Below are positions 11,873-27,963 of a stretch of DNA of 64,000 nucleotides, one piece after another. The DNA is from Chrysomallon squamiferum (taxonomy: Eukaryota > Animalia > Mollusca). The notes under the pieces are model-generated. The model was not told where the DNA came from, searched no databases, and worked only from the letters and a program-made list of their open reading frames with translations. The translations under genes and the position numbers were made by a program. Position 1 is the stretch's first letter. Each line of letters starts with the position of its first letter. The stretch covers positions 558,001-622,000 of the forward strand of contig CM022676.1 of assembly GCA_012295275.1 (NCBI GenBank), in the 5' to 3' direction.

Positions 11873-11989
11873 TCAGACATTACACATATTTTCTGAAATG
11901 TTCAGCACTTGATAACATATATTCCTGATAACATATATTTCCTGTAAAACACACACACACACAAACGCACACACACACACACATTATAC

Positions 11990-12020
<31 letters not shown>

Positions 12021-12882
12021 AACACATAAATAATAAAAAAGAAAATAGTTAATAAACATAATTATTTCTAAATGTCCTCTGCTATTATGATAAAATATAA
12101 ATATTTCATACTTCTGTTCATTTCCCGAATTGTTATCTAAACAAAGTCAACACAAATATAGACATATTCATGACCTCAGTTGATAATGAGAGGAAGCCGG
12201 TGTCACGAAAGGTCAGGCTGCCCTTTTCTGATTAGCGATGCGATTTGTTTTATCACCTTCCAAGTACGTCGAGGCAAATACTTTGAACTTTGACAAACCA
12301 GCTAAGTACGTGTTACTGTGTACAAACATACACGTGTGCGCGCATACACAAAAACGCACATAACATACACGCACACAGACATACACGCACGTACACAAAG
12401 GTACGCACACACACTGACACAAAAACAATTTTGACTCTTAATAAATGAATGTGAGGTGTCACCTTTCCTGCCGTTCTTCATTCCAAATGAATTACTGAAT
12501 GCATAAATGTTTAAAGAGATGACAGGAAGAAAAATATATCAAAATAACAAAATAGTTACATGTCCTTCGTTCCTCTCAGTGTTCATAAAAGCCTGACTGT
12601 CTAAAAATTCGAAACAATATATAGACATCTTGGAACAAGCGGACATGGTAAAATAAATTCAACTTACCAGGCTGAAAAACTAGATTGTCATATGTTGCAG
12701 ACTGATGTTCTGAGATGTTCCTGTCGTTTGAAAGAGACAAAAGTTCTAAATGAAATTTGCACTATTTTCTTGTTTGTTTTTAATCAGTTTTGAAGATTAA
12801 AACACTATATCCTAATATGTATATATATAGAGAGAGAGAGAGAGAGAAAGAATGAGAGATAAAATGTATTTTCAACATAAAA

Positions 12883-12942
<60 letters not shown>

Positions 12943-26300: not shown

Positions 26301-27023
26301 AGCTGTAGAAATCCTAAAACAAGCTGTAGAAATCATAAAACAAGCTGTAGAAATCATAAAACAAACTGTAGTTATCCTAAAACAAACTGTAGAAATCTTA
26401 AAACAAACTGTAGAAATCCTAAAACAAACTGTAGAAATCTTAAAACAAACTGTATTAATAATTATAATAAATAAATAAACTTCCTTTAAATACCTACATA
26501 AGTAAATAATTTAATTTGGGTAAAACCTTTTTTCAAAACAATAGCTGGATTTTAGGGGGGTTTGTTTTAAATTAAGTTAATTAGCGGCCAAATTATTTTG
26601 AATTTTATGAGAACACACAGTTATAGTATTTGTTAACCTTATATCTTAAAATAATTATATGGATCTTTAAATAGGTTTCTGTATTTTAAATGAGGTTTCT
26701 CAAAAACCATAGATAATTTATTTAGGCTTACTTTCCTTTGTTTTATTTCAAGCGACGTTTGTGAATTAATAAATAGTGTTTGTTGATGGTTTGTGTATCT
26801 AGTGGATGAGTTTGGTATTTTACCATCACACAATACATTACCGTCTCAATTTACTAATCCCAATCACAGTGCATCGAAACGCCTACATTCCCTAGAGGCG
26901 ACAAACAATAACAACTTCATACACCTACTCTGTTCACAATATACACTGAGACCTCGTGAATGATTAAAAGAAAGTTCTCAGTGATTTTTAAACATTTTTG
27001 TGTTGTTATTATATAACAATTTG

Positions 27024-27057
<34 letters not shown>

Positions 27058-27963
27058 TAATAATAATAATTCAAAATTAGAAATACAAATACAAATATAC
27101 TGTGGTAAGATTTGCAGTTTTATTTTATAAAAGAAAAGACTGAATCTAGCTGCCTGCATTATGTGATAATTCTATATCTAACTGTTTGACAGTTCCTAAG
27201 CGGTCCCACTGTCTGACATAAGATAATTATATTAAAATGTATCGACTGTTTATCCCAACCTACACGAATCATAGAAAATCACGAAAAATATGTACTTGTG
27301 AAATAGATTTCAGATTTTTCAGTTATAGCTTATTAAAGCAAGGAATGATCAATAGTTTTACAATTCGTGTGTATTTTACATCCTGCATTTAACTGTTACA
27401 TATGTAAAACAATCATGTAGGTAGGTATACATATTATTATAGATTAATTTTAATTAATTTGCACCTGTGACTTCTTGTTTCTCTATGTGCAGTTTACTAC
27501 TTCTTAGTCGAAACATGACAGCATAAGAAAAGATGATATGAAATGTTTGTTTAGTTCCTCCAATATTGCCGCTGTGTCGATGCTCGCAAGACCACTATAT
27601 AAAGTCAGTGTTTGTTGGTTATGTAGGTCAGATAAATATCGTATGTCACAGGTACGTGAGATATACACAGATATACCCGGATGTTATTTACAACGATCTG
27701 ACAAATTCATTGTTAATCTGACAAATGTCTGGACATGTGTAGAAATAAATAGTAAAAATAAAAAAATAAAAAAAATAATAGTAATAATAATTATCGGCAT
27801 TTTGTTATGATTTGACATTTTAAGTTTCTCGGATAAATAGTAGATTTGTAATTATTTTTCAATATTTTTCTTTAATAACTATAAATATTTAAAAAAATGA
27901 CATACCTGAAACGACTGCAGGTGTAACAAGTAAAACAATCCAAATGTATGAAAAGAAAAACAT
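11873..27963 (-). CDS. Gene B: type-I membrane receptor, signal peptide-SRCRx3-Ig-FN3x4-TM-tyrosine-motif tail (about 927 aa by one splice path)
   Basis: Exons 27906-27963, 24516-24660, 23676-23845, 22716-22860, 22259-22428, 21387-21531, 20882-21051, 19571-19873, 18950-19249, 18330-18629, 17712-18011, 16558-16857, 13559-13672, 13068-13101, 12668-12720, 12112-12136, 11873-11924 are phase-compatible, GT-AG, and total 2784 nt. Tail exons are less certain. Confidence 0.8.
13559..13672 (-). CDS. Transmembrane exon of gene B
   Basis: [38 protein letters not shown]; 114 nt, phase 1-1, hydrophobic run followed by a basic stop-transfer. Confidence 0.9.
14343..16250 (+). mobile_element. Degenerate, internally deleted non-LTR retrotransposon (I/Nimb-like) in a gene B intron
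   Basis: gag-like remnant ([34 protein letters not shown]); endonuclease start [12 protein letters not shown]...LCLHVTFL at ~15657; ORF2 C-terminal remnant [10 protein letters not shown]...FLKE. Confidence 0.7.
16558..16857 (-). CDS. FN3 exon 4 of gene B
   Basis: 300 nt, phase 1-1, GPPRIPSNV...[10 protein letters not shown]...YNKYGD. Confidence 0.92.
17712..18011 (-). CDS. FN3 exon 3 of gene B
   Basis: 300 nt, phase 1-1, open frame, donor gtgcgt. Confidence 0.9.
18330..18629 (-). CDS. FN3 exon 2 of gene B
   Basis: 300 nt, phase 1-1, donor gtaaga. Confidence 0.92.
18950..19249 (-). CDS. FN3 exon 1 of gene B
   Basis: 300 nt, phase 1-1, donor gtaaga. Confidence 0.92.
19571..19873 (-). CDS. 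Ig-like exon lacking the canonical cysteines (gene B)
   Basis: SPRLDHRF...[22 protein letters not shown]...[21 protein letters not shown]...; 303 nt, phase 1-1. Confidence 0.85.
20271..20440 (-). pseudogene. 3' half of an Ig exon with the 5' half and acceptor missing
   Basis: [56 protein letters not shown]|gtaact; upstream is an in-frame stop and SRCR-type intron sequence. Confidence 0.75.
20882..21531 (-). CDS. SRCR domain 3 of gene B (exons 21387-21531, 20882-21051)
   Basis: [41 protein letters not shown]...[19 protein letters not shown]; 6 Cys, group A. Confidence 0.92.
22259..22860 (-). CDS. SRCR domain 2 of gene B (exons 22716-22860, 22259-22428)
   Basis: ...[18 protein letters not shown]...[19 protein letters not shown]. 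Confidence 0.92.
23676..24660 (-). CDS. SRCR domain 1 of gene B (exons 24516-24660, 23676-23845)
   Basis: ...[18 protein letters not shown]...[47 protein letters not shown]. Confidence 0.92.
26273..26454 (+). repeat. 21-bp minisatellite, 9 units
   Basis: taaaacaaactgtagaaatcc-like units every 21 nt from 26273 to 26441. Confidence 0.9.
27906..27963 (-). CDS. Signal-peptide first exon of gene B
   Basis: [23 protein letters not shown]|gtatg; 58 nt, phase 1. Confidence 0.8.

What the first reader, a model, noticed from the sequence alone, without database searches (positions are those of the whole stretch)
11873..27963. Chimeric SRCR-Ig-FN3-TM receptor with a tyrosine/ITIM-like tail: candidate invertebrate inhibitory immunoreceptor
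Seen: 17 phase-compatible exons give signal peptide, 3 group-A SRCR, Cys-less Ig, 4 FN3, TM and a tail with VYET, TYDNL and ICYQVL. Known: SRCR domains (MARCO, DMBT1) bind microbial surfaces; the FN3 signature EFNGG..QTF followed by TM resembles nephrin/sidestep-type IgSF C-terminal modules; IxYxxL is the ITIM consensus. Inference: a scavenger-type recognition head has been grafted onto an IgSF signalling stalk. I do not recognise this architecture as a named family.
Basis: partly seen in the sequence, partly recalled or inferred. Interest (0 to 1): 0.8.

Follow-up and report, generated by a model that had tools for sequence, protein, structure and literature searches.

The report
Scavenger-headed snail receptor, uncertain off-switch
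This gene, likely from a deep-sea vent snail, has in-frame exons for three scavenger (SRCR) domains, an antibody-like domain, four fibronectin repeats, a membrane anchor and a tyrosine tail, a layout also predicted in a related vent snail; it likely senses microbes or matrix at the cell surface, but its proposed inhibitory motif depends on an unproven splice.

Summary
The 17 minus-strand exons are real and give an open 927-aa frame: signal peptide, 3 six-Cys SRCR, Cys-less I-set Ig, 4 FN3, TM, tyrosine tail. One RNA run shows the FN3-4 to TM splice; the SRCR-to-Ig splice was not seen. The layout is not unique: Gigantopelta aegis XP_041372788.1 (auto-named 'DMBT1-like') has 7 SRCR, 5 Ig, FN3, TM and a Tyr tail, within a large Ig-FN3-TM receptor family. 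All three SRCRs keep DMBT1's cation-binding acidic residues. The ITIM (ICYQVL) is the ancestral frame, but a 16-nt duplication at the last acceptor shifts it out unless the model's two weakest splice sites are used; 4 of 5 splice options lose it, and relatives' tails also fit the ITAM pattern. 'Inhibitory' is unproven. I found no paper on this architecture. The scan noted paired ITIM/ITAM Ig receptors elsewhere in this genome, but no SRCR-headed one. New variant of a known kind; interest 0.42.

The parts
27906..27963 (-). Exon 1: ATG and signal peptide, phase-1 donor
   Evidence: donor 8/9
24516..24660 (-). SRCR1 first half
   Evidence: Pfam SRCR E 3e-12
23676..23845 (-). SRCR1 second half
   Evidence: Pfam SRCR E 8e-14
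22716..22860 (-). SRCR2 first half
   Evidence: 92% DNA identity to SRCR1a; tblastn
22259..22428 (-). SRCR2 second half
   Evidence: 92% DNA identity to SRCR1b
21387..21531 (-). SRCR3 first half
   Evidence: 92% DNA identity to SRCR1a
20882..21051 (-). SRCR3 second half
   Evidence: 88% DNA identity to SRCR1b; about 26-48 times intron depth in 3 genomic-type runs, so many near-identical copies
20437..20881 (-). SRCR-type intron DNA that runs into the relic Ig exon; break at 20436/20437
   Evidence: homologous to the intron after SRCR1b down to about 20476; 4 of 4 runs show other copies continuing differently at 20436
20271..20436 (-). Relic 3' half of the Ig exon that precedes the Cys-less Ig in relatives; open frame, donor intact, 5' half and acceptor gone; predicted to be skipped
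   Evidence: 71% identity over 55 aa to XP_041372788.1, up to 82% over shorter stretches in others; weak Pfam Ig_2
19571..19873 (-). Cys-less I-set Ig exon, about single copy at 95% identity
   Evidence: Pfam I-set 30.5 bits; 53-57% to 7 G. aegis proteins; depth 0.6-1.9 times intron
18950..19249 (-). FN3-1 (300-nt phase 1-1 exon)
   Evidence: Pfam fn3; no RNA cover in X9
18330..18629 (-). FN3-2
   Evidence: Pfam fn3; RNA pieces end at 18330
17712..18011 (-). FN3-3
   Evidence: Pfam fn3; RNA piece starts at 18011 with 28 letters before it
16558..16857 (-). FN3-4
   Evidence: Pfam fn3; spliced to TM exon in RNA
13559..13672 (-). Transmembrane exon with basic stop-transfer residues
   Evidence: hydropathy; acceptor 13672 shown by RNA
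13068..13101 (-). Tail exon with VYET
   Evidence: predicted only
12668..12720 (-). Tail exon with TYDNL (YxxL and YxN)
   Evidence: donor 8/9; predicted only
12112..12136 (-). Proposed 25-nt exon, needed for the ITIM frame; doubtful
   Evidence: weakest donor of the model, 5/9
11910..11941 (-). 16-nt tandem duplication (1 mismatch) at the start of the last exon; creates the second AG at 11924 and shifts the ancestral frame after the first AG at 11941
11873..11924 (-). Last exon in the ITIM frame (ICYQVL), ancestral frame by homology
   Evidence: aligns with the last motif block of P0004, P0020, P0025; acceptor 6/16 pyrimidines

Best explanation
This is a transcribed, spliced gene for a predicted type I membrane receptor, likely of a vent-snail family of Ig-FN3-TM-tyrosine-tail receptors, whose SRCR head likely binds microbial or matrix polyanions through calcium or magnesium and whose tail likely recruits SH2 proteins with a sign (on or off) that is untested. 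Shown: the exons and open frame, the FN3-TM splice in RNA, the same domain order in G. aegis XP_041372788.1, the break inside an Ig exon, the conserved acidic cation sites. Inferred: (1) SRCR3 splices past the relic half exon to the Cys-less Ig (phase 1 to phase 1); (2) the gene came from an SRCR-Ig(n)-FN3-TM ancestor by loss of the Ig array at the 20436 break, with tandem copying of one SRCR type (x3) and of the FN3 exon (x4), the FN3 run standing in as the stalk; (3) ligand clustering leads to tyrosine phosphorylation at VYET and TYDNL; YxN fits Grb2-type and YxxL fits phosphatase or kinase SH2 docking (established motif rules, recalled); (4) in this sequence the ancestral IxYxxL is more likely shifted out of frame than kept, so the main product probably lacks a canonical ITIM.
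For: Open 927-aa frame and phases; Pfam on exons; RNA splice FN3-4 to TM and exon-edge pieces; dN/dS 0.42-0.60 in 3 SRCR pairs and 0.28-0.59 in 6 FN3 pairs, no stops (small counts, no test). XP_041372788.1 has SRCR7-Ig5-FN3-TM-tail and XP_041372995.1 SRCR8-Ig-TM-tail without FN3. The nearest outside relatives of the window SRCRs by tree path are domains 2 and 5 of XP_041372788.1 (no starred support). 15 of 25 family proteins have the relic's Ig just before the Cys-less Ig. SRCR1 and 2 keep 8 of 8 cation-coordinating side chains of DMBT1 SRCR8, SRCR3 6 of 8 plus 2 acidic swaps (residues from PMC7043408; mapped by motif). Without the 16-nt duplication the first AG (11941) gives the ICYQVL frame directly after the TYDNL exon.
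Against: No RNA joins SRCR to Ig or Ig to FN3: X9 has zero cover on SRCR3b, the Ig exon and FN3-1, and one FN3-2 piece runs on upstream for 66 letters that do not lie on this stretch. The DNA between relic and Ig exon has no cover in X1 and little in X6, so this arrangement may not be in every animal. The stalk tree is unresolved and cannot tell deletion from new graft (p-AU 0.46); the window's Ig and FN3 are more alike to Ig-only members (55-57%, 50-56%) than to XP_041372788.1 (48%, 45%). The TM exon uses an AG lying 20 nt behind another AG, so a distal AG can win in this gene and the ITIM may be kept. No ligand or signalling data exist.
Confidence: 0.55

Rival explanations
1. It is a true inhibitory receptor: the 25-nt exon and the AG at 11924 are used (or the 16-nt duplication is a rare allele or assembly error), ICYQVL is phosphorylated and recruits an SHP-type phosphatase, damping responses to bound bacteria such as symbionts.
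For: The ICYQVL frame is ancestral: against 8 relatives' tails it scored best alone in 4, tied in 3, lower in 1 of the five options; 41 vs 33 against P0004, shuffle p 0.007. 6 of 15 related tails hold an ITIM consensus, including XP_041372788.1. A distal AG is used at the TM exon.
Against: Needs the weakest donor and weakest acceptor of the model; 4 of 5 options lack it; only one ITIM, 16 residues after YDNL; 10% of tail shuffles give an ITIM; 4 of 15 related tails fit the ITAM consensus. No RNA was laid on the tail.
Confidence: 0.2
2. The SRCR block and the Ig-FN3-TM block are not one working transcript: the junction is a haplotype-specific rearrangement or a mis-join in a cluster of near-identical copies, and the expressed FN3-TM RNA comes from an Ig-headed paralogue or allele.
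For: No RNA on SRCR3b, Ig or FN3-1; intact copies of the relic Ig exon are abundant in the same RNA run. SRCR, relic-Ig and FN3 exons sum to about 26-150 times intron depth (rough). X1 lacks cover at 19942-20263; X6 shows a weak joint 19539-20657 with 21 letters on its short side. Neighbours on both strands are broken relics.
Against: An X2 contig (20407-20613, no differences) crosses the break, with 30 letters on the short side, one under the tool's bar, and X2 may be the assembly's own source. All 12 ectodomain exons are open with good splice sites and dN/dS under 1. The same domain order exists in a related snail. One RNA run of one tissue is a weak negative.
Confidence: 0.15
3. It is mainly an epithelial adhesion or matrix-binding protein of shell- or scale-secreting tissue, with the tail serving trafficking (YxxL sorting) rather than immune signalling.
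For: The expanded SRCR 'DMBT1' genes of the scaly-foot snail are highly expressed in mantle and scale epithelium (PMC7142155, passages); DMBT1 SRCR8 was assayed for hydroxyapatite and heparin binding (PMC7043408, methods passages).
Against: None of the 251 rows of that paper's Pfam table for those genes lists Ig or FN3. The FN3 rows in the scale proteome all belong to one protein over 2500 aa long (file cut when stored). Relatives keep several spaced tyrosine motifs, more than sorting needs.
Confidence: 0.1

Closest known systems
[quoted passage not shown]
   Same: Signal peptide, six-Cys SRCRs (55-58% over the SRCR block), the same Ig plus Cys-less Ig plus FN3 module, TM, tail with YxxL/I and YxN motifs.
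   Different: 7 SRCR of three types against 3 of one type; 5 Ig against 1 plus a relic half; 1 FN3 against 4; tails align poorly (p 0.08). It is a predicted model, not a described protein.
G. aegis Ig(n)-FN3-TM family (automatic names nephrin-, hemicentin-, NCAM-, KIRREL-, CEACAM5-like; e.g. XP_041372569.1, XP_041373960.1)
   Same: Closest Ig (55-57%) and FN3 (50-56%) matches, and tails that align motif by motif. A 'CEACAM5' family is listed as expanded and immune-related in G. aegis (PMC7895826, passages); one member here bears that name.
   Different: Their heads are Ig arrays, not SRCR; several have an extra YxxL that makes an ITAM-spaced pair, which the window tail lacks.
Scaly-foot snail 'DMBT1' expansion (65-70 copies; PMC7142155, PMC7736800)
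   Same: Tandem, variable-number SRCR genes in a peltospirid snail; the window's SRCR exons are also in tens of copies.
   Different: Their published Pfam table lists no Ig or FN3 in 251 rows. I did not establish that the window is from this species.
Vertebrate CD6 and CD5
   Same: Three SRCR domains, TM and a phosphorylatable tail that tunes activation both ways (PMC11747410, passages).
   Different: No Ig or FN3 stalk; their domains are group B with 8 Cys (recalled); likeness of function, not kinship.
Hydractinia Alr proteins and oyster CgIgIT2
   Same: Invertebrate Ig(-Fn3)-TM receptors in expanded clusters with ITIM or ITAM tails (10.1101/2022.03.04.482883, passages; PMC11999971, passages).
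   Different: No SRCR head; homology to this family not tested.

Membership tests
Group A SRCR domain | Six conserved cysteines (PMC10855680, passage) | tested here: met
   6 Cys in 3 of 3 domains
Group A SRCR domain | Acidic cation-binding sites as in DMBT1 SRCR8 (D1019, D1020, D1023, D1026, D1058, D1059, N1081, E1086) | tested here: met
   8/8, 8/8 and 6/8 plus two acidic swaps, by motif mapping with a one-residue offset
DMBT1 proper | CUB and zona pellucida domains after the SRCR array (PMC7736800, passage) | tested here: not met
   SRCRs are followed by Ig, FN3 and TM exons
DMBT1 proper | VEVLxxxxW bacteria-binding motif (title of Bikker 2004 in the reference list of PMC7043408) | tested here: not met
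   VEIQ at that place in 3 of 3 domains
Nephrin / SYG-2 orthologues | Conserved low-copy gene with a long Ig array and one FN3 (recalled) | tested here: not met
   Named nephrin and syg-2 hits reach 22-34% on FN3 against 45-56% for the snail family; exons are multicopy
Peltospirid SRCR-Ig-FN3-TM class (XP_041372788.1) | Order SRCR, Ig, Cys-less Ig, FN3, TM, Tyr tail | tested here: met
   the penultimate Ig survives only as a relic half exon
Peltospirid SRCR-Ig-FN3-TM class (XP_041372788.1) | Common descent of head and stalk together | tested here: inconclusive
   head nearest to its domains 2 and 5; stalk tree unresolved, p-AU 0.46
Peltospirid SRCR-Ig-FN3-TM class (XP_041372788.1) | One transcript joining SRCR to Ig, FN3 and TM | tested here: inconclusive
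   FN3-4 to TM seen; no cover on SRCR3b, Ig, FN3-1 in 1 RNA run
ITIM inhibitory receptors | [ILVS]xYxx[ILV] in the expressed tail | tested here: inconclusive
   present in 1 of 5 splice options; ancestral frame, weak sites
ITIM inhibitory receptors | Phosphorylation-dependent SHP/SHIP recruitment and damping of activation | not testable with these tools
   needs pull-down and cell assay
ITAM activating receptors | YxxL/I-x(6-12)-YxxL/I | tested here: not met
   none in the model tail; 16 residues lie between its two YxxL

The most novel reading that the evidence does not exclude
Vent snails keep a large receptor system in which SRCR or Ig recognition heads are swapped onto shared Ig-FN3-TM stalks with ITIM- or ITAM-type tails by non-allelic recombination; the break at 20436 is a recent head swap still segregating among animals, and the 16-nt duplication is an on/off switch of the ITIM by splice choice, tuning tolerance of endosymbiotic bacteria.
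Probability: 0.18. Interest if true: 0.72.

Novelty: new variant of a known kind. Interest (0 to 1): 0.42.

Why it matters
Vent snails house bacteria inside their cells, and their expanded SRCR genes have been read as secreted DMBT1-like or shell-matrix proteins. A membrane-bound subclass with a tyrosine tail gives a direct route from SRCR binding to cell signalling and a testable candidate for symbiont recognition or tolerance. The half-exon scar and the exon-by-exon amplification show how such receptors are rebuilt. The interest is tempered because mosaic SRCR proteins are common in invertebrates, the layout already sits in RefSeq, and neither the full transcript nor the sign of the signal is shown.

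Tried and rejected
No whole genome is held for the window, so family size rests on rough contig depth only. A single-FN3 homology search found 0 of 49 candidates; the profile search scored 7977 candidates of 857-2445 aa and 1 of its 35 hits carries SRCR, a weak test of absence elsewhere. One search listed 150 of 2387 hits, mostly long multi-Ig proteins; one search kept 25 of 156 stored proteins, and for the census I dropped P0124 (39% over 71 aa in a multi-Ig protein) and added P0157 (hand-coded; many rows are fragments). TM acceptor 13692 rejected (stops). Use of the relic Ig half as an exon: 4 of 7 in-phase AGs give open frames but lie in purine-rich coding sequence; not favoured, not excluded. 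A possible 73-nt exon near 25627-25699 would shift the frame; left out. Trees: stalk tree of 24 rows has 12 of 21 inner branches open; SRCR tree of 20 rows gives no starred set holding the window domains. ESM Atlas with part of P0007 gave SRCR+Ig clusters, commonest in Chordata, top score 0.91, a lead only. A fold prediction of the Cys-less Ig had not finished; no structure result. Cephalopod origin, my first guess from base composition, was dropped. Runs X7, X8 (small shares) were never laid and are no evidence. Earlier-findings look-ups by words, sequence, near place and 'scavenger SRCR' returned nothing.
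Full report
1. The observation. The finding lies on the minus strand of an AT-rich (about 30% GC) animal sequence. Seventeen exons from ATG 27963 to TGA 11873 have AG/GT ends, matching phases and give 927 aa with no internal stop. Single-exon Pfam scans give SRCR for both halves of the first domain, I-set for the Ig exon and fn3 for 4 of 4 repeats. Each SRCR has 6 Cys and is split over two exons. The repeats are recent: 88-92% DNA identity among SRCR exons and 83-89% among FN3 exons, with dN/dS 0.42-0.60 (3 pairs) and 0.28-0.59 (6 pairs) on small counts.

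2. RNA and DNA reads. One search listed 11 runs, 9 holding part of 16400-21200, 1 on record as RNA. Four were laid on that stretch (all are contigs). In RNA run X9 a contig leaves the genome at the FN3-4 donor (16558) and goes on with the first 30 letters of the TM exon (identical to 13643-13672); its 165 loose letters would fit TM, the VYET exon and 17 nt more, but only 30 were shown. Other X9 pieces stop at exon edges 18011 and 18330. Against the model: X9 has no cover on SRCR3b, the Ig exon or FN3-1, and one FN3-2 piece runs on upstream for 66 letters that do not lie on the stretch. No reads were laid below 16400 or above 21200, so the tail splices and the SRCR1-3 splices are open. Summed contig depth on SRCR3b, FN3 and the relic Ig exon is about 26-48, 41-67 and 66-154 times the intron median in three runs, while the Cys-less Ig is 0.6-1.9 times; the tool warns that this is no copy number, so I read it only as 'many near-identical copies'.

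3. What it is related to. The Ig exon found 7 proteins among 252 candidates, all Gigantopelta aegis, 53-57% identical. They belong to a family with Ig arrays, then a fixed module of Ig, Cys-less Ig and FN3, then TM and a tyrosine tail. A profile of this module found XP_041372788.1, with signal peptide, 7 SRCR, 5 Ig, FN3, TM and a tail with three YxxL/I motifs; XP_041372995.1 has 8 SRCR, an Ig array, TM and tail but no FN3. In the census 2 of 25 family proteins carry SRCR. An abalone protein has the same Ig-Ig-FN3-TM-Tyr module at 28-38% without SRCR. So the window is likely from a peltospirid or close vent snail (inference; species not established), and the architecture predates this gene or arose more than once.

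4. The scar. Between SRCR3 and the Ig exon lies the 3' half of the Ig exon that precedes the Cys-less Ig in 15 of 25 relatives: 55 codons, open, 71% identical to XP_041372788.1, donor intact. Upstream of 20436 it is replaced by DNA homologous to the intron after SRCR1b. In 4 of 4 runs other copies continue at 20436 with different letters that by my reading encode the missing upstream part of the domain. One X2 contig crosses the break with no differences but has 30 letters on the short side, one under the tool's bar, and X2 may be the source of the assembly; X1 has no cover at 19942-20263 and X6 little. Two histories fit: deletion of the Ig array from an SRCR-Ig(n)-FN3 ancestor, or a new join of an SRCR gene to an Ig-only stalk. 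The head is nearest to domains 2 and 5 of XP_041372788.1, while the stalk is more alike to Ig-only members, but the stalk tree is unresolved and does not reject grouping with XP_041372788.1 (p-AU 0.46). I favour deletion as needing one event, without a test that decides it.

5. The tail. VYET and TYDNL have ordinary splice sites. The last exon starts with a 16-nt tandem duplication (11941-11926 and 11925-11910, one mismatch). Without it the first AG would give the ICYQVL frame directly after the TYDNL exon, and that frame aligns best with relatives' last exons, so the motif is ancestral. With it, the first AG gives ICYQEY and no ITIM. A distal AG is used at the TM exon, so this is possible; I put it at about one in three, and the duplication may be an allele or an error. 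Among 15 relatives with a TM (of 20 examined; several tails are cut short), 6 hold an ITIM consensus and 4 an ITAM consensus; 10% of shuffles of the window tail give an ITIM. The sign of the signal is therefore open.

6. Mechanism. SRCR1 and 2 keep all 8 side chains that hold cations in DMBT1 SRCR8, SRCR3 keeps 6 with two acidic swaps (PMC7043408, passages); the VEVLxxxxW motif is not kept. The closest solved structures are CD163, CD5L, SCARA5, DMBT1 and MARCO domains. I infer cation-bridged binding of polyanions on microbes or matrix, display on a stalk of one Ig and four FN3, and SH2 docking on phosphorylated tail tyrosines (motif rules recalled). None of these steps was tested.

7. Literature. 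Nine searches found no paper describing an SRCR-Ig-FN3-TM tyrosine-tail receptor in molluscs; the library lacks most subscription journals. I read passages of PMC7142155, PMC7736800, PMC7895826, PMC11871041, PMC7308585, PMC11797021, PMC10855680, PMC5119243, PMC7043408, PMC11999971, PMC11747410 and 10.1101/2022.03.04.482883, the whole of Supplementary Data 2 of PMC7142155 (251 rows, no Ig or FN3) and term searches in the supplements of PMC11871041 (one file cut, one unreadable). [quoted passage not shown] Other supplements that I did not open may list such genes.

8. Verdict. A real and probably functional gene; a new variant of a known kind (mosaic SRCR receptor; IgSF tyrosine-tail receptor). 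It works like CD6/CD5 or Alr-type tunable receptors by inference, is not DMBT1 or nephrin, and is not shown to be inhibitory. Interest 0.42.

Noticed in passing
window 1-8100 (+): Convergent paralogue with at least three SRCR domains, one intact FN3 exon (92% to FN3-4 with flanks), a truncated FN3, a divergent Ig ending in a stop, and small tyrosine-motif exons; looks rearranged or decayed.
   Followed up: partly
window 5056-5155 and 63496-63595 (+): Two copies (90% alike) of a small relic exon in which a YxxL motif (SYAAL in the first copy) follows EV in a shifted frame; possibly a former ITIM exon.
   Followed up: partly
window 32933-32990 (-): Second intact ATG plus signal-peptide exon, 74% amino-acid identical to exon 1, phase-1 donor: a possible alternative first exon 5 kb upstream.
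   Followed up: partly
window 28779-33976 and 55862-61168: 5.3-kb inverted duplication, 93% identical, with LINE-like fragments (recognised by eye) and the signal-peptide exon copies; the copy at 56860-56916 (+) is frameshifted.
   Followed up: partly
window 40584-40721 (-): Frameshifted first half of an SRCR of the type that opens XP_041372788.1, upstream of both signal-peptide exons.
   Followed up: partly
window 41370-55844: 14.5-kb degenerate satellite with a 40-bp core; the minus strand has 53 acceptor-donor juxtapositions (TTAG then GTAA) against 0 in the rest of the window, like recursive-splice points or a decayed micro-exon array.
   Followed up: partly
window 20476-24687: Synonymous divergence among SRCR exons is 0.14-0.15 while repeat blocks with introns are only 75-78% identical, a hint of exon-limited gene conversion.
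   Followed up: no
window 63239-63844 (+): Fragments of an FN3 exon end and its downstream intron, a third decayed copy.
   Followed up: no
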